Origin: Octopus vulgaris
Taxonomy: Eukaryota
NCBI GenBank assembly: GCA_951406725.2
Contig: OX597822.1
Span: forward strand, 85,560,001 to 85,624,000
Reading direction: 5' to 3'
Length of the DNA: 64,000 nucleotides
Shown here: piece after piece, positions 2,171 through 63,145 of the stretch
Layout: every line of letters begins with the position of its first letter
How positions within the stretch are numbered: position 1 is the first letter of the stretch
Notes under the pieces: model-generated
Databases searched by the model: none
Seen by the model: only the letters and a program-made list of their open reading frames with translations
What the model was told of the DNA's origin: nothing
Position numbers and translations under genes: made by a program

Positions 2171-4137
2171 TGTATCTGGATTAACGGAGCTACTTGTATG
2201 TATGTATGTATGTATGTATGTATGTATGTATGTATGACTCTTGAGAGTCAACGGCCATCCAATAAATGATTTAAGGCTGTATCATGCGCGGGGACATAGA
2301 AATAATCGGACTGAATACCCGATCGCGTGGTTAAACCATTGGGAGTGAAGGTCTCCTAGCCTTTGTTAGGGCATTCTTCTAAGAGAATATAACTCAGGTA
2401 ACTGGGATGACTCCGATATAAAACCTGCGGCTTAGTGGTTACCGATGATGTTGACTTGTTCTTCTTTTCGAATTATGGCTGCTGTTGCTTAGTGAATGGG
2501 ATTGACATAGTGCACAGCCTTTCCTCACTTTAAAAAAATTTTCTTGCACAGGCATTGCACGATAACAACATTGATTAAGCTTCGTGCAATGACCATACTC
2601 GATAACGAGGGGGCAGCCACCATACACCATGTATGTATGTATGTATGTATGTATGTATGTATGTATGTATGTATGTATATATGTATGTATGTATGTAGGA
2701 AGGTAGGAAGGTAGGTAGGTAGGTAGGTAGGTAGGTAGGTAGGTAGGTAGGTAGGTAGGTAGGTAGGTAGGTAGGTATGCATGTATGCATATATGTATGT
2801 ATGTGTGAATGTATGTATGCATGCATGCATATGTGTGTATGTGTGTATGTATGTATGCATGCATGTATGTATATATGTATGCATGCATGTGTGTGTATGT
2901 ATGAATGTATGTATGTATTCATGTGTGTGTATGAATGTACGTAAGTATGCATGTATATATGTATGCATGTGTGTGTATGTATGAATTGATGAATGTATGT
3001 ACGTGTGTGTATGTATGTCTGCTTGTCTATGTATGGTATGTATCTTTGTGTATGCGCTGTGTGTACGTACGCATGTATGTGTGTGTATGCATGCGTATGC
3101 ATGTGTATGCATGTGTATGTATGTATGTGTGTATGTATGAATGTATGTCTGTGTACGTATCTATGTATGTATGTACATGAAGAGAACTGGTTCACTAAGA
3201 CCAATGTGTGTGTGTGTGTGAATGTGTGTCCGTGTCCATCTGTGTGTATGTGTGTGTGCGTACTTGTTTGTGTGTGTGTGTTATTTAAAGAAGGCGGTGG
3301 GGTGGGAGAATAAAGATCGATCAAATGAAAAGTGAGAAAGTGAGAAAGAGGTCTGCAGAGAAAAACGGACAGACAGACAGACAGACAGTGAAATGGAAGA
3401 GAGTGAGAGAGAGAGAGAGAGGGAGAGGAGGTGAGAAGGAGTAGCAATAACAAGAAAAAAGAAAACGTTATATAAACGAGGGAGGCGTGGGAGGAAGTAA
3501 ATTAACACCAACAAAGGTGGAAACACAGGATGGGGGTGGAGCCAAGAGATTTGAAAATGAAACGCTGAGGAGGTGACCATTGTGTCATTGTTTTAAGGAT
3601 GCTGGCCACTTAATGTCATAAGAGCCGCTTCATCATTTTTACCAACAACCTATACGGGAGTTCAAGCTCCAGGCAATGTTATTTCATCGCCTCTGTGTCG
3701 TCGCCTTTTCTTTTAGATTTCTTTTCTTTGTGTTTTTCCTTCGCTCTTTCCTTCTTTTTCTCTTTTTACATTTCATGTTAAAAATTCCACCCAACTTTTT
3801 TTAAACTTCTTTCACATTTGTTTTTGCTTTGTTATTTTGTTGTTTTCTTTTCTATTTTATTCATCATAAAGAAGCGGTTTATACCTTCATGTGTTTTTCT
3901 TCTTTATTCTTCTTACTCAGTGGGTGTATATAACGATTATCCGGTCTATTTTGTCGGGAATTAGCAAAGCAGTATAAGAGAAGGAATCGCTGAAAATGGC
4001 GCCTGGCCACTCGAATTAACTCGCAAGCTTCCTTAATTACACAACTCCTGTTTACACACGTATATGCAGTGTTGCGTATGTGTGTGTATGAGTGTATATA
4101 GGTGTGTGCGTCTATGTAAACATGTATATGAATATAT

Positions 4138-8508: not shown

Positions 8509-8930
8509 AGGCGGAGAGCTGGCAGAAACGTTAGCACGCCGGGTGAAATGCTTTGCGGACTTTCGTCTGCCGTTACGCTCTGAGTTCAAATTCCACCGAG
8601 GTCGACTTTGCCTTTCATCCTTTCGGGGTCGATAAATTAAGTACCAGTTACGCACTGGGGTCGATGTAATCGACTTAATCCGTTTGTCTGTCCTTGTTTG
8701 TCCCCTCTGTGTTTAGCTCCTTGTGAGTAGTAAACAAATAGGTATTTCGTCTGCCGTAACATTATGAGTTCAAATTCCACCGAAGTCGATTTTGCCTGTC
8801 ATCCTTTCGGGGTCGATAAATTAAGTACCAGTTACGCTCTGGGGTGCATGTAATCGACTTAATCTCTTTGCCTGTCTTTGTTTGTCCCCTCTATGTTTAG
8901 CCCCCTGTGGGCAATAAAGAAATAAATATA
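8509..8930 (+). mobile_element. SINE family A with tandemly duplicated body
   Basis: One head, then a ~180-bp body twice (8560-8740, 8742-8925); imperfect TSD TAA(A/C)ATTTGTA. Confidence 0.85.
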
Positions 8931-9009: not shown

Positions 9010-9592
9010 ACGCGTTTTAGTCAGTGACTGTGTGCAAAACTTCAAACAACCACGAACCAAGATTCTTCTTCAAATCGAGCCAAAGGGTTAGCAGTACGGA
9101 TGCTACCTTCTTCGTTGTTGTGTAGTATTTCTTTCATGGCTGGAACCGGCAGAGAAACATAAATAGCCAAATAGAAATAGAGAGGAAGGCTAGAATGTTA
9201 GCCGGGTGGAAGTAAAGATGTTTAAACTAGAGATTCTTTAAATAAATAAACTCATGCAGGCTAAAAGCGACCCTATTAAGCAACCACCTTAGCTCCACTA
9301 TTTTACGCCCGTGCACCCCACCACTAACTCCTACCTGTATTTCATTCATTAAATGGTCCTGTGAAAAATTTAAGGAGAAACCAACTGGAATTGAACCCAG
9401 CTAGCTTCCATAGCAACGATGAAGGATTATAAACGCTTTGATTTATTTATTTTTATGTTTATGTTTTCTGGGTTCTTCAGCTTGTTTCTTTTTGTTTTTC
9501 TTTTATTTTTTTGTTTTAATTCTTTTGTGGCGTTTGGATTTGGCTGCTGTCCTTCAAGCAGACTACTTGAACGCACACAATATGTATGTATG

Positions 9593-9691
<99 letters not shown>

Positions 9692-9870
9692 TATATATAT
9701 AATGGTTGTATACTGTCAATCTAACAAGAACGTGACAGTAGGGGGTACACCACCGTTATATAGCCCTAGGAGGCATCGAACGCCTCCTGACAGCTCGACA
9801 CATTTTATCCTGTGTCCTTATATACACATACGAAGGGGAGACAAACACCCCCAACTGCCGGAACTGCATC

Positions 9871-9912
9871 TAGGGACACCGTGTTTCAGGATCATTGTCC
9901 TTCATCGGCCTA
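9871..9912 (-). ncRNA. Type I hammerhead ribozyme (family H2, inverted copy)
   Basis: Exact reverse complement of 10061-10102. Confidence 0.82.
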
Positions 9913-10060
9913 GAGTAGCAGACACCGGTCAGCTGGCGATGTCTGTCTCGACTTCGTATCTGTATATATCTATAGTCAGTGAAGTCTATTCACTGATTAT
10001 CAAAATAAGAAATATTGAGTTTCTAAATCTCTCGTAGAGAGGTGTACGATGGTGGAACGA

Positions 10061-10102
10061 TAGGCCGATGAAGGACAATGATCCTGAAACACGGTGTCCC
10101 TA
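10061..10102 (+). ncRNA. Type I hammerhead ribozyme (family H2)
   Basis: TAGG-CCGATGA-AGGA-caatga-TCCT-GAAA-CACGGTG-TC-CCTA; predicted GUC cleavage after 10098. Confidence 0.82.
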
Positions 10103-10328
10103 GATGCAGTTCCGGCAGTTGGGGGTGTTTGTCTCCCCTTCGTATGTGTATATAAGGACACAGGATAAAATGTGTCGAGCTGTCAGGAGGCGTTCGATGC
10201 CTCCTAGGGCTATATAACGGTGGTGTACCCCCTACTGTCACGTTCTTGTTAGATTGACAGTATACAACCATTATATCGCTCCACCACCGTACACCTCTCT
10301 ACGAGAGATTTAGAAACTCAATATTTCT

Positions 10329-10361
<33 letters not shown>

Positions 10362-10770
10362 TATATATATACATATATATATAGTTCAAATTTACAGAAA
10401 ACAAAAGACGAAGACAGTACACACACACACACATGTATGTAAACACACACATATACATATAAGTGTGTTGATAGCCTGTATACAGTTAATAATATTAACG
10501 GTGATTAAAACTCACTTTTCGCCGTCGTTACCCTGAGTAGCCAAGGTGAGGAACCTCGATTTTCGATACGTCTTAATATTTGTAGGTATCTATATGTACG
10601 ATTGTATGCGTGCAATTTGTGTACATCGGCACCAAGCGCACTTATACACATACTCCTATTGACGCGTGTGTGTGTGTGTGTGTGTGTGTACGCGCGCGCT
10701 GAAATATATATACACATATATATACTTACTTGGAAATGGATGTAAATATATATTTATGTGTATGTGTGTG

Positions 10771-26559: not shown

Positions 26560-28020
26560 TGATCTTAATTAATATATCTAATCAAGGTAATATTCCCCCC
26601 TCCTTATTGATTACCTAATTCCATCATTCAGGCAAATTGTTGATCCGTCGGTTGTAAAAATTCTTCGGATTTCGAAGCAAAGAAGCACACAATACCTTTT
26701 ATAATTTCAATTAATAAATTATTTGGATCTTTTCGGTTTGAACGGCAGTTTTTTCTAGCGATGTCATATGAAATTGTCACCCATAATTATGACCCTAGTA
26801 TCGATCTATTGCATTTCAGTCTGTTTTAGGGTTAGGGTTAGTTAGGGTTAGGGTTAGGGGTGGGGGGAAGGGTATATATTTTTCTTCACAAATGTAAATA
26901 AACCCAATCTGTTTCTTAAGCGAGGGACATATTTATACGGCACAGACGTCAGTGATTGGCTGAAATTGCAGAAATTGAAGAAAAAAACAACAAATATCTT
27001 ACAAACTATAGAATTTTCTCAATAAAGCCAAGAGAAAAAGATGTTTTATAAACACATTCTACCAGTATACGAAGTTTAAAATTTTTTAGTTACCTAGAAA
27101 TTATATTTAAAAAATTGCCGTTCAAACCGAAAAGATCCAATTATTTTCCCTCTAAACAATGTTGCAATGATTCGAAAAGATCATAATCGAATGGAGCGAG
27201 GTTATGTGAGTAAGGAAGAGGAAGTGGTATTTCCATATTTAGTGTCATAACCTTTTCTTGAGGAATTCGAATTATCGTTTTCCTGTATTCTAGCATTATC
27301 TTGTAACAGCAACGTCCCTTTGCGAACAACAAATAATGGATGCTTTTTCTGCAAATTTTTGTGCAATGCTTCCCATTTATACTAAAACTGATCCGCATTA
27401 ACTGTTTCATTTTGATTTCTTCGTATTCTACTAAACGAAGAGAATAAACTTCTTCGTATTCTCCTATTTCATTGGTTACTAACCAGTGTCGTTTTCGTTG
27501 GATATGATTATAGGGAAGCCACTCTCATAATTTGGAAAGATTCGGTGGCAATAACAAGAAGGGGAAACTCCTTCCATAAGCTGAAATTATTAGGGACCCA
27601 CTGATTCAGATACTTTTCTCAGTTCATGAAGGCGTTTTATGACCGAAGTCTGACTTGAATTGCAAATTCTTGTGCAATTTTCTTCGGATTTTGTTTTTCA
27701 ACTACGGTTTTCAGAAGCACAATGTTGACAAAACTTGGTTGTCCAGATCGTGGGAGATCTTCAAGAGAAAAATTTCTCGAGCGAGACTAGCCAAGTCTCT
27801 ACAGAGAGAAGAAATATATCTTGCCATTTCCATTACTGACGTGCTTCTTTTGAATTCCTGCAGCATAGAGTGTCTGATACGGATCTGAACTAAACTCATT
27901 CAAAAAGAGTAAAATCGATTTCAGTTGAACCATTATAGCATAAAGTAATCTGCAAAGAAAAGGAAAACATCAGAATGTAAAAACTGATGTGTATTTTACC
28001 GTAAGTAGCGAAAATGTAAC
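26560..28020 (-). mobile_element. Degraded mariner transposon, interrupted by the MITE
   Basis: LPYSHNLAPFDYDLFESLQHCLEGK resembles the mariner YSPDLAPSDYHLF motif. The C-terminal remnant (..FASKS..) continues left of the MITE. Confidence 0.7.
26725..27138 (-). mobile_element. Second copy of the same MITE, opposite orientation
   Basis: Same TIRs; TSD AATTATTT (26717-26724, 27139-27146); TTAGGG run at ~26826-26858. Confidence 0.85.
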
Positions 28021-49950: not shown

Positions 49951-51119
49951 ACTTATTACGGACTAGGGCAAGCAGAATCGCGTTACGAAACAGTTTCAGA
50001 TGCGACACTAAGAAAACACAACTGATACACACAAAACTATATATAAACATTATACACACACCGATATTATTATACACACTGATATTATATATATACACAC
50101 ACACACGCAGTAAAGTAGATTCTCAACTTCAAAGGCGGCAATATTTTATAAGTGTTACATATATAGGCACACCAACATACACACACACACACACACACAC
50201 ATAGACTGATACGCATACATACGCACCCGCGCGTATGTATTCACAGTCCTTTTTCCCTGAAGGTGTCCCCATCAAAGTACTTTTACCAGAGTTTGAACCC
50301 AAATATTTTTTATAGTTGTTTTTAGTTATTTTTATTTTCATTTTGTGGACGTTATTTCGTTAACTATTTTGTTTTATTTGATTTTTTTTTTTTGCTAAGA
50401 ATCAAAACCAAAAACAATGGTAAATCCCAAGGGATTAAAAAAGGAAAGGAAAGGAAAATCGAAGGAATAGATATAAAGTAAATAATAAGGGAAGGAAAAA
50501 GAAATTGAAGAAGATTCTAAATTAGAAAGAAAGAAAGAAAGACTATAGAGAAAAGAAGGATAAAAAGAAAGTCTTCTAGCACAAAACTATCAAAATAACC
50601 ACATATTTAGAATATTTAAATTCCATGACTACATTTTTTTAGTTGTTTTAGCTTGTTTTTTTTTTAAATTCAATTTAATTTTTTAATCTTTTTTTTTTTA
50701 TAATTTCCTTTTGTCGTCTGCAGCTAAATATTTTTACTTGCTGTTCCTTGTAAATTAATATCGCAGACGATGTCGTTATAACATTGATACCCAGCCAATA
50801 TATACACAAACATATAGAGACATACGATATATAAATATACATACACACACACACACACATACATATATAGACATATATACATTATACATACGCGCACACG
50901 CATTTAAAAAAATATATATATATATGTTAATAGTTTGAACTTTCATGCCTCTTATATAAACATGTTGCATAATATCAGTTTAATTATTATATAAATATAA
51001 ATTATTTGCTCCGTCTTTCTCTCCCCCTCTCTCTCGCACACACATACACACACACACACACACTCGCACACACGAGACGACTAGATATAAAAGAACCTAA
51101 AAGACATTTGAGAGGCGAG

Positions 51120-51744
51120 ATGTTCATGATGGAGAACTACTTGTGCGGTTTCGAGAAAGAACTGCTTGACTTCTGCTATGAGAGCGTCGGTTCGTACGAC
51201 ACCGGATTTGAAGACGATTTCCTCGACGACTCACCTTTCGGTTCAAATGGTGAGGAGAATGATTGCTCCGATTTAGAAAACAGTCTGCAGACTTATGCTT
51301 CTTTGGATGACGGATACTCGGCCTTTATCGAAAGAACCATCGATGTTGGCGTGGCCATTGGCGGCGGTGACGTTGATGGAGGAGAGGAAGAGGACGAAGA
51401 CGAAGAAGAGATATCCGGGCATAGAAAAGCTGGATTCGGACCACTCCGAGGGAAACCGGTGCGGAAAGCGTTGCAGCGACGGGCGGCGAACATGCGCGAG
51501 AGGAGACGAATGAAGTCCATTAACGATGCTTTCGACAAACTGCGCACGTGCATACCGGACACAGTGACCACAGAACGACGTCTGTCTAAAGTGGACACGC
51601 TCCGGCTGGCCATACGTTACATTGAGTACTTGAGTGACCTGGTGCAGAGTTGCAATGAGTATGGGACAGACAAAAGGATGGCGAAAAGTCCACGACATCA
51701 GGAAAAGGTTATCATGTGGTGCCACCTAACGACACAAACTGGAG
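51120..51744 (+). CDS. PTF1A: PTF1A/Fer1-like bHLH transcription factor, first coding exon (downstream exon not found in window)
   Basis: ATG at 51120 (MFMMENYL) and an acidic N-terminus. bHLH QRRAANMRERRRMKSINDAFDKLRTCIP...ERRLSKVDTLRLAIRYIEYLSDLV, followed by QEKVIMWCH (cf. PTF1A QKVIICH). Phase-1 donor GAG|GTAAAT at 51744/51745, where vertebrate PTF1A has its intron. GC/CpG-rich relative to the flanks. Confidence 0.88.
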
Positions 51745-51990
51745 GTAAATATTAAGACAAACCCTTTTCTAGAGTTTCTTCTAAAGTTTCTTGTGGTTTA
51801 AAAAATTTTTTTTTAATTCATATTTATTGCACATTATATTTTCACTCGCCCTCATTTCTTTCAATGCTTATACGCACACACACATACACATACATACACA
51901 CATACATACATACATACATACATACATACATACATACATACATACATACATACATACATACATACATACATACATACATACGTGTGTATG

Positions 51991-61124: not shown

Positions 61125-61167
<43 letters not shown>

Positions 61168-61229
61168 TATACATATATACATATATAGATATATACATAT
61201 TTACATATATATATATATTATATATATTA

Positions 61230-62458
61230 TTTGTCCTTACTCTGAACTGCTTCTCGTTCGCGGGCGAGTTCTACCATCAGGTCTCGGGAGTGGCCATGGG
61301 AACGCGAATGGGCCCCAACTATGCGAACCTGTTCGTTGGCTATGTTGAGGCCCAAATATTCTCTAATTTCACTGGTCCCACTCCTGAACTATATGGTCGT
61401 TATATTGACGACATTATCGGTGCCACCTCACTCTCCCGCGAACATCTAGATTCCTTCCTCTCTTTCGTCCAATCTTTCCATCCAGCCCTCCACTTCACTT
61501 CCACTATCTCCAACACCTCTGTCTCCTTCCTCGACATTTCGGTTAGCATTCTTCACTCCACTCTTACCACCTCCATTCACTACAAACACACAGACTCACA
61601 CTCATACCTCAACTTCTCTTCCTCCCACCCAGAACACACCAAGCTTTCCATCCCCTATTCCCAATTCCTCCGTCTACGTAGGCTCTGTAGTGACGACCAT
61701 GACTTTGAGACTCAGTCTCAACGTATGGCTCACCACTTCACCCTACGTGGATACCCCCTCACCACTATCCACACCGCCCTTGCCAGAGCACGGTCCGTGG
61801 ACCGTGTATCTGCTCTCTCTCCCCGAACCCGCCCTGTAGTCTCCCGCCTCCCTTTTCCCCTCACTTACCACCCCACGACCCTACGTCTCCAACGCACCAT
61901 TCTTCGAGCTTTCCGTCATCTCCAGTCCGACCCGTCCACTTCACACCTCTTCCCTAACCGACCCCTCCCCTCTTTCAAACGAGCCCACAACCTTCGGGAC
62001 CTTTTGGTCCATAGCTCCTTCCCTGACCCTACCTCCCAACCCGGCTCGTTCCCCTGCTCCCGCCCACGTTGCCGCACTTGCCCTTACATCTCCAACACCA
62101 CCCGCCTCACTAGCACCCACCATCGACCCTATCCCATCATCCACTCCTTCACCTGCACCTCCAGCAATATTATCTATTGCATCTCTTGCTCTCTCTGCAA
62201 TTCCTTGTACATCGGACAAACGGGACGCCGCTTGGCTGACCGGTTCGCGGAACACCTTCGTGACATCCACCTTGCGAACGACACACCGGTCTCACGCCAT
62301 TTCCGCTCAACCGGTCACTCCTTGCAACACCTATCTGTGTTCGGTTTGTCCTTACACAGAGGCCATCCGGATTCCCGTTTGCGCCGTGAACAGGAATTAA
62401 TCTTCTCTCTTCGCTCTTATACGCCATTTGGTCTCAACTCTCCCCCCTCCTCATCTAA
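61230..62458 (+). CDS. Penelope-like reverse transcriptase (C-terminal half) + Cys linker + GIY-YIG endonuclease, 5'-truncated
   Basis: Open from FVLTLNCFSFAGEFYHQVSGVAMGTRMGPNYANLF. Contains YGRYIDDI, FLDISV, YKHTDSHSYL..SSHP, SIPYSQFLRLRR, linker CSRPRCRTC, NIIYCISCSLC..LYIGQTGRRLADRFAEH and terminal PFGLN. The ORF track extension past ~62460 is low-complexity read-through. Confidence 0.9.
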
Positions 62459-62799
62459 CCTCACCCCCCTCCTCACCTATCCTTTCTCCCCCCGACCCCT
62501 ACTTCTTCAGTCCTTCATCCTTTCACCCCTACTCCCCTTCCCTTCTTCCCTCTTTCTCCCTCCCTCTTCCCCTTCCCTCTGCTCCCTCACTCCCTCTCTC
62601 CCCTTCTCTCTCCCCCTCTCCCTCTTTCCTCCTTCATCCCCCTCATCCCCTTCCTTCTCCCCATCCTCTCCTCTCCCCCTTCTCCTCCCCCTCTTCTTCT
62701 CCTCCCCTTCTCTCCCCCTCTTCTCTCCCTCCCCCTCTTCTCCCCCTCCCCCTCTTCTCCTCACTACACCACATGACTTTACACATCACATCACATATG

Positions 62800-63145
62800 A
62801 TGTGCCATACTAATACACACACCAACTAATACCTACTAATACGTACTAATACATACTAGTACATACTAATACTTACACCAACCCTATACATACACACGTC
62901 CAGACCCCGCATACGCACTTATACTCTCTCACACACACACACACACACCTATACATACCAATACGTACTAATACATACTAATACATACTAATACATACAC
63001 CAACCCCATACATACGCACGTCCAGACCAATCTTACGCACTAATACTCTCTCATACACACACACACACACACACACACCCTTATACATACTAATACATAC
63101 ACCAACCCTATACATACACACATCCAGACCCCTCCCACGCACTTT
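62800..63145 (+). repeat. ~110-120-bp tandem units in the PLE 3' UTR
   Basis: ATACATACTAATACATACACCAACCC(T/C)ATACATAC...TCCAGACC repeated about three times. Confidence 0.7.

What the first reader, a model, noticed from the sequence alone, without database searches (positions are those of the whole stretch)
9697..10331. Young double-inverted cassette (A'-spacer-B'-A-B) with a hammerhead on each strand
Seen: a 635-bp, relatively GC-rich insert in (TA)n made of two interleaved inverted repeats. The ~216-bp arms look identical and the ~52-bp arms differ by one base. Arm A starts exactly at stem I of the hammerhead TAGG-CCGATGA-AGGA/TCCT-GAAA-CACGGTG-TC-CCTA. There is no coding capacity. Inference: it formed by repeated template switching during PLE reverse transcription, with the junction at the ribozyme boundary. 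Transcription in either direction would give a potentially self-cleaving RNA that can also form long dsRNA.
Basis: partly seen in the sequence, partly recalled or inferred. Interest (0 to 1): 0.75.

Follow-up and report, generated by a model that had tools for sequence, protein, structure and literature searches.

The report
Two-armed Penelope-type hammerhead repeat insertion
This is one young copy of a non-coding 363-base repeat with a hammerhead ribozyme motif that occurs hundreds of times in this genome, usually as two back-to-back arms with a short tail on one end only, a layout known from Penelope-like retrotransposons and likely made when both ends of a cut target prime reverse transcription.

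Summary
The repeats are real (A arms 216/216 identical; B arms 56/58), but there is one inversion, not two. The cassette is a whole 363-nt unit on the minus strand joined head-to-head to a 5'-truncated unit plus a 58-nt tail on the plus strand. The unit is a young, structured, non-coding family (426 hammerhead matches, 7 subfamilies) inserted mostly in (TA)n. In 75 loci reached through the hammerhead motif, 52 are head-to-head; 46 have exactly one tailed and one untailed end, and none has two alike. Inner junctions are scattered and joined by microhomology; 3 of 180 ends fall at this copy's stem-I point, so the junction is not fixed at the ribozyme. In 33 of 61 loci, this one included, neither arm can be a copy of the other, which disfavours fold-back. 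Best reading: a non-autonomous retrozyme-type element moved by a Penelope-like enzyme that primes both cut ends at two fixed RNA sites (inferred). No sequence-matched autonomous partner was found; cleavage, circles and this locus's own junction in reads are untested. The layout is published for Penelope-like elements; this scan reported the same reading for other families in this genome.

The parts
9580..9701 (.). (TA)n target, left side
9700..10062 (-).
   Evidence: fold z -9.7
9869..9914 (-). Type I hammerhead motif with full stem I, U4C core, 4-bp stem II, short near-palindromic stem III; predicted cut between 9875 and 9874
   Evidence: activity untested
10061..10062 (.). The single inversion junction; 2 shared bases, with two private substitutions in the last 14 nt of the minus arm
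   Evidence: found in no other fetched locus
10061..10275 (+). Tailed arm, body: unit positions 151-363, 5'-truncated inside hammerhead stem I
10061..10102 (+). Second hammerhead motif, stem I cut to 4 bp; predicted cut after 10098
10274..10331 (+). 58-nt tail: start of the next unit (positions 1-58), ending at the second fixed end of the family
10329..10383 (.). (TA)n target, right side; a target duplication cannot be resolved in TA repeats

Best explanation
The cassette is one insertion of a non-coding 363-nt hammerhead repeat family, made of an untailed and a tailed arm joined head-to-head, and it was likely pasted in trans by a Penelope-like reverse transcriptase/GIY-YIG endonuclease that primed cDNA from both ends of one staggered cut. 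Shown: unit, family, two fixed outer ends, one-tail rule, scattered inner ends with microhomology, target duplications. Inferred: the RNA template spans the unit junction (multimer or circle); the enzyme cuts both strands of (TA)n about 10-14 nt apart; one 3' end primes at the unit end and the other 58 nt further on; both cDNAs stop at variable points and are joined by microhomology or a few added bases; gaps are filled.
For: 426 relaxed hammerhead matches, control 0; 1,854 exact matches to the 3'-end 22-mer. Of 75 loci from the first 100 of 164 exact hammerhead matches, 52 are head-to-head: 46 tail+no-tail, 0 tail+tail, 0 no-tail+no-tail, 6 with a non-standard end; none tail-to-tail; all 144 loci: 95 head-to-head, 78 tail+no-tail, 0 alike. 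Among ends in the two classes, 80 of 109 are at position 58 and 84 of 105 at the unit end. Duplications of 10-14 nt flank whole two-armed inserts in L010, L024, L033, L057, L069. Microhomology of 2 nt or more in 40 of 62 blunt or overlapping junctions against 16% by chance. Neither arm can be copied from the other in 33 of 61 loci. Opposite arms share 98 of 509 variant sites against 795 of 17,099 between loci. RT + GIY-YIG frames occur in this genome, and L177 has a 766-bp inverted copy with an extension on one end only. In vitro a PLE protein cuts and extends both strands and starts at two RNA sites that bound the tail (PMC11167929).
Against: No autonomous element sharing sequence with the unit was found, so the enzyme is assigned by footprint only. 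23 of the 75 loci show one arm. Arms of one locus differ as much as arms of different loci (2.3% against 2.4%), so one template molecule is not shown. In the in vitro work the start site did not differ between strands, so it does not itself explain the one-tail rule. 28 of 61 loci are compatible with one arm being copied from the other. Inner ends are mildly enriched near stem I (15 of 180 at 145-157; best-window P 0.049).
Confidence: 0.7

Rival explanations
1. Fold-back or self-priming: one cDNA folds on itself (or an antisense RNA self-primes) and is copied back, giving the inverted arm.
For: Proposed for PLE head-to-head inversions from palindromes at junctions (PMC3846280, passages). 7 of 92 junctions are near-symmetric; 28 of 61 loci fit one arm within the other; the window's A arms are identical.
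Against: In 33 of 61 loci, and in the window, each arm holds sequence the other lacks. 85 of 92 junctions are asymmetric. It does not explain why the copied arm ends at the other fixed site.
Confidence: 0.1
2. Template switching during one round of reverse transcription, triggered at the ribozyme.
For: This copy's plus arm starts in stem I; 15 of 184 ends at 145-157 against 6.9 expected, P 0.004 uncorrected.
Against: 165 of 180 refined ends lie elsewhere, 2 at the cleavage site; loci were found through the hammerhead, which favours arms reaching past it; a switch to the opposite strand needs an antisense template and does not give fixed outer ends on both sides.
Confidence: 0.1
3. Two independent insertions into the same (TA)n, or a later DNA-level inversion.
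For: The family favours (TA)n (64 of 92 two-armed loci have TA on both sides); arms differ about 2.3%.
Against: No tail-to-tail pair and no pair with like ends in 144 loci; no TA run at the junctions; one target duplication around both arms; arms share variants four times more than unrelated loci.
Confidence: 0.05
4. Assembly artefact (chimeric fold-back reads).
For: No listed contig spans this locus or bridges its junction (short-read contigs only).
Against: 95 loci with different junctions, target duplications and diverged arms; inversion-type joints of other copies occur in contigs of independent runs, two of them in two runs each.
Confidence: 0.03

Closest known systems
Metazoan non-LTR retrozymes (Cervera and de la Pena 2020, PMC7229834, passages and sections 13-14 read; Li, Clavereau and Pollet 2026, bioRxiv 10.64898/2026.07.22.740005, part 1 of 5 and passages read)
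   Same: Non-coding 150-450 bp unit (mussel 350-390 bp), type I hammerhead, GC under 50%, short head-to-tail repeats, strongly self-paired RNA, PLEs in the same genome.
   Different: Here most copies are short head-to-head two-armed inserts with fixed ends; the word 'inverted' does not occur in the main text of the first paper and once, in a reference, in the second. The core carries U4C. Cleavage and circular RNA were shown for coral and mussel, not here.
EN+ Penelope-like element insertions (Craig et al. 2021, PMC8557442, passages and section 11; Arkhipova et al. 2013, PMC3846280, passages; Cervera and de la Pena 2014, PMC4209133, part 1 of 4)
   Same: Partial tandem, adjacent inverted 5'-truncated copy in head-to-head orientation, tail often at one end only, 8-10 bp target duplications, (TA)n preference in some clades, hammerhead pairs 100-700 bp apart on opposite strands.
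   Different: No reading frame; tail is 58 nt rather than 30-40; no sequence match to any PLE examined.
Poseidon element of Anolis in vitro (Frangieh et al. 2024, PMC11167929, parts 1-2 of 4)
   Same: Two internal start sites bounding the tail, both DNA strands cut and extended, AT-rich target, ribozyme cleavage not needed for insertion.
   Different: In vitro, start site did not depend on strand; here the two ends of an insert always differ.
L1 twin priming
   Same: Inverted insert within one target duplication, junction microhomology.
   Different: In L1 the second primer anneals at variable internal sites and the two parts do not overlap; here both outer ends are fixed and the arms cover the same template stretch.

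Membership tests
Metazoan non-LTR retrozyme | Non-coding unit of 150-450 bp, GC under 50% | tested here: met
   363 nt, parts 35-48% GC; no Pfam match in the longest frame
Metazoan non-LTR retrozyme | Type I hammerhead in each unit | tested here: met
   77 of 85 full units parsed with the motif; Rfam models did not detect it; C at position 4 in 72 of 77
Metazoan non-LTR retrozyme | Head-to-tail copies with at least two consecutive hammerheads | tested here: met
   Met by the family (for example L019, L035, L061), not by the window's copy, which has one per strand
Metazoan non-LTR retrozyme | Highly self-paired RNA | tested here: met
   z -9.7; 7 of 39 subfamily substitutions break a pair against 17 expected
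Metazoan non-LTR retrozyme | Self-cleavage | not testable with these tools
   U4C lowers activity in vitro in a viroid case (PMC3088659, passage)
Metazoan non-LTR retrozyme | Expressed as linear and circular monomers | tested here: inconclusive
   Family sequence is in contigs of three runs only guessed to be RNA; contigs show neither strand, ends nor circles
PLE-mobilised insertion | Partial tandem plus adjacent inverted 5'-truncated copy | tested here: met
   52 of 75 loci
PLE-mobilised insertion | Tail at one end | tested here: met
   46 of 52; length 58 nt, longer than the published 30-40
PLE-mobilised insertion | Target duplication of about 10 bp | tested here: met
   10-14 nt in five two-armed or complex loci; not resolvable in the window's TA flanks
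PLE-mobilised insertion | Sequence shared with the pLTR of an autonomous PLE | tested here: inconclusive
   No match in 30 + 14 GIY-YIG loci, 20 other hammerhead loci, 4 further loci; these sample few of 6,136 candidates
Autonomous PLE | RT and GIY-YIG reading frame | tested here: not met
   None in the cassette or as part of fetched family copies

The most novel reading that the evidence does not exclude
PLE enzymes insert by obligate double priming: a dimer binds the RNA junction structure and assigns one cut end to each of two fixed start sites, so the inverted copy and the one-sided tail are direct products of one reaction, one-armed inserts being cases with a vanishing second arm; ribozyme cutting is dispensable and U4C may keep the multimeric template uncut. 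This family would be a minimal 363-nt substrate to prove it.
Probability: 0.45. Interest if true: 0.65.

Novelty: new member of a known kind. Interest (0 to 1): 0.42.

Why it matters
How Penelope-like elements make their tandem and inverted structures is described as undefined in Craig et al. 2021. Many young copies of a short unit give countable footprints: a strict one-tail rule, no tail-to-tail pairs, microhomology junctions, and arms that cannot be copies of each other. These favour priming at both cut ends over self-priming and tie a retrozyme-type repeat to PLE chemistry. The cassette itself is ordinary within its family.

Tried and rejected
Rfam: only microRNA-like hits from repeats and the long hairpin; no hammerhead model. 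Autonomous partner: not found among GIY-YIG loci, a second GIY-YIG family, other hammerheads with the same stem III loop, 30 loci sharing the 3' end or 40 hand-picked variant loci; L188 is a local tandem duplication and L193 a decayed neighbouring PLE. The idea that identical A arms prove one template molecule failed as a family rule. An apparent excess of inner ends at unit position 1 (11 of 184) vanished after exact mapping (0 of 180). Reads: only short-read contigs were available; none listed spans the locus or shows an empty site, which proves nothing. The insert at unit positions 120-136 was first taken for PLE body; it has a zinc knuckle and no RT. The protein atlas gave no answer for it. 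Literature: 'twin priming' with 'Penelope' returned 3 papers, seen as listings only, none on PLEs by title. Most subscription papers and all supplements were not seen and may already describe the one-tail rule.

Full report
Observation. The 216-nt arms at 9697-9912 and 10061-10276 are 100% complementary. The shorter arms are 58 nt (10005-10062, 10274-10331) with two mismatches. Both flanks are (TA)n. The hammerhead core, stem II and short stem III are present on both strands. On the minus strand the motif continues into a longer stem I and a long helix; on the plus strand it is cut inside stem I. Rfam did not detect it. The longest frame has no Pfam match.

Anatomy. Reading the minus strand from 10062 to 9700 gives a 363-nt unit. 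The plus arm is unit positions 151-363 followed by 1-58. The A-B joint is the normal head-to-tail junction seen in many loci, so the cassette has one inversion, not two. The unit folds far better than shuffles (z -9.7). Between seven subfamily majorities, 7 of 39 substitutions break a predicted pair against 17 expected (0 of 5,000 draws as low; the structure is predicted and the subfamilies are related).

Family. The genome (2.8 Gb, 227 contigs) holds 164 exact and 426 relaxed hammerhead matches and 1,854 matches to the 3'-end 22-mer; these count motifs, not loci. 85 full units fall into seven groups of three or more, 1.0-1.7% from their own majority and up to 30 positions apart, plus ten singletons. 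Position 4 of the core is C in 72 of 77 parsed units; 8 did not parse. Family sequence is also in contigs of runs labelled as four organisms (two of the other three were laid).

Architecture. I scored 144 loci after dropping 21 duplicate fetches and one segmental copy (L096). The least biased subset is 75 loci from the first 100 of the 164 exact matches; the rest were chosen by likeness to the cassette, by the inserted reading frame or by hand. In the 75: 51 two-armed, 23 one-armed, 1 complex. All 52 inverted loci are head-to-head; 46 have one tailed and one untailed end, 6 have a non-standard end, none has two alike. In all 144: 95 head-to-head, 78 tail plus no-tail, none alike, none tail-to-tail. 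Outer ends are fixed within a few bases. Of 92 simple two-armed loci, 64 have TA on both sides; duplications of 10-14 nt flank L010, L024, L033, L057 and L069 (11 rows in all, some weak). Eleven two-armed loci can be seen in the 30 fetches anchored on the 3' end, mostly of older subfamilies with shorter arms (read by eye, not included in the counts).

Junctions. Of 90 junctions (2 with large gaps dropped), 28 carry added bases and 62 are blunt or overlapping; 40 of the 62 share 2 nt or more, against 16% by chance. Inner ends are spread over the unit: 15 of 180 at 145-157, 3 at 150-152, 2 at the cleavage site; the best 13-nt window has P 0.049 against uniform, and the first, uncorrected test gave P 0.004. 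There may be a slight preference near stem I, but no rule. The window's junction is in no other fetched locus.

Arms. Of 61 colinear tail/no-tail loci, 33 have arms that cannot be copied from each other, the window among them; 22 fit untailed-within-tailed and 6 the reverse. Arms of one locus differ by 294 of 12,560 sites, like different loci (2.4%), so the window's identical arms reflect youth or chance; but opposite arms share 19% of variant sites against 4.6% between loci, pointing to a common source lineage. 23 and 27 of 71 arms exceed one unit, so the template is a multimer or a circle; the data do not separate these.

Mechanism (inferred). A PLE protein binds RNA across the unit junction, cuts (TA)n on both strands, and each 3' end primes, one at the unit end and one 58 nt on; the cDNAs stop at variable points and are joined. 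This matches the in vitro behaviour of the Anolis element (PMC11167929, parts 1-2 read), except that start site there did not depend on strand. The genome has RT plus GIY-YIG frames, several of 781 aa without stops, with the cysteine linker that Craig et al. give for Neptune and Nematis (no tree built). L177 shows an inverted copy with an extension on one end only. None matched the unit in sequence.

Transcription. A read-through RNA in either direction makes the antisense arm first and folds into a 216-bp duplex that buries the hammerhead. Self-cleavage would need a start inside the cassette, probably a second hammerhead for the dimer fold described in PMC4209133, and tolerance of U4C (PMC3088659). 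None of this is tested.

Known or new. The layout is the published PLE insertion pattern (PMC8557442; PMC3846280), opposite-strand hammerhead pairs were noted in 2014, and the unit fits non-LTR retrozymes in size, motif and fold, whose PLE origin is argued in a 2026 preprint. The family is a new member of a known kind. What goes beyond the text I saw is the strict one-tail count and the test against fold-back. Earlier notes of this scan reach the same reading for other families in this genome; a sequence look-up found no note on this unit. Those notes call the animal an octopus; I did not test that.

Noticed in passing
L079:736-2472, L080, L083, L098, L117, L120, L129, L130, L132, L136, L137, L140, L142: A 1.75-kb element with one ~430-470 aa frame (zinc knuckle, no RT found) is inserted at unit positions 120-136 with a 10-15 nt duplication, in three 5'-junction types and sometimes in tandem; 14 exact 3'-junction matches. 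The enlarged unit is moved with the same two-armed, one-tail layout (L130, L137). Related subfamilies sit in other targets.
   Followed up: partly
L174:906-4587, L175, L176: Abundant PLE family with a 781-aa RT + GIY-YIG frame and an upstream frame, ending in (TA)n.
   Followed up: partly
L177:2321-5483: PLE copy with a 766-bp, 100% identical inverted arm and an extension of about 33 nt on one end only.
   Followed up: partly
L187:2697-2930 and 2965-3260: Two further small head-to-head cassettes in (TA)n from unrelated hammerhead families, one also with C at core position 4.
   Followed up: no
L288-L307: 92 diverse hammerhead-like motifs with the same palindromic stem III loop (control 8), unrelated to the unit.
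   Followed up: partly
window 61125-62813 (+): 5'-truncated PLE frame (RT thumb to GIY-YIG), about 30% identical to L174 and L177.
   Followed up: partly
window 50973-51755 (+): bHLH-coding exon (Pfam HLH, E 7.9e-21).
   Followed up: no
window 22366 (+) and 29533 (-): Hammerhead-like cores with stem II but no clear cleavage triplet.
   Followed up: no
window 8561-8928; 26826-26859: Two tandem 184-bp copies (88% alike); a short TTAGGG run.
   Followed up: no
L049, L129, L207: Loci scored as one-armed that carry an 8-15 nt remnant of the tail end as a second arm; most other one-armed loci show none.
   Followed up: partly
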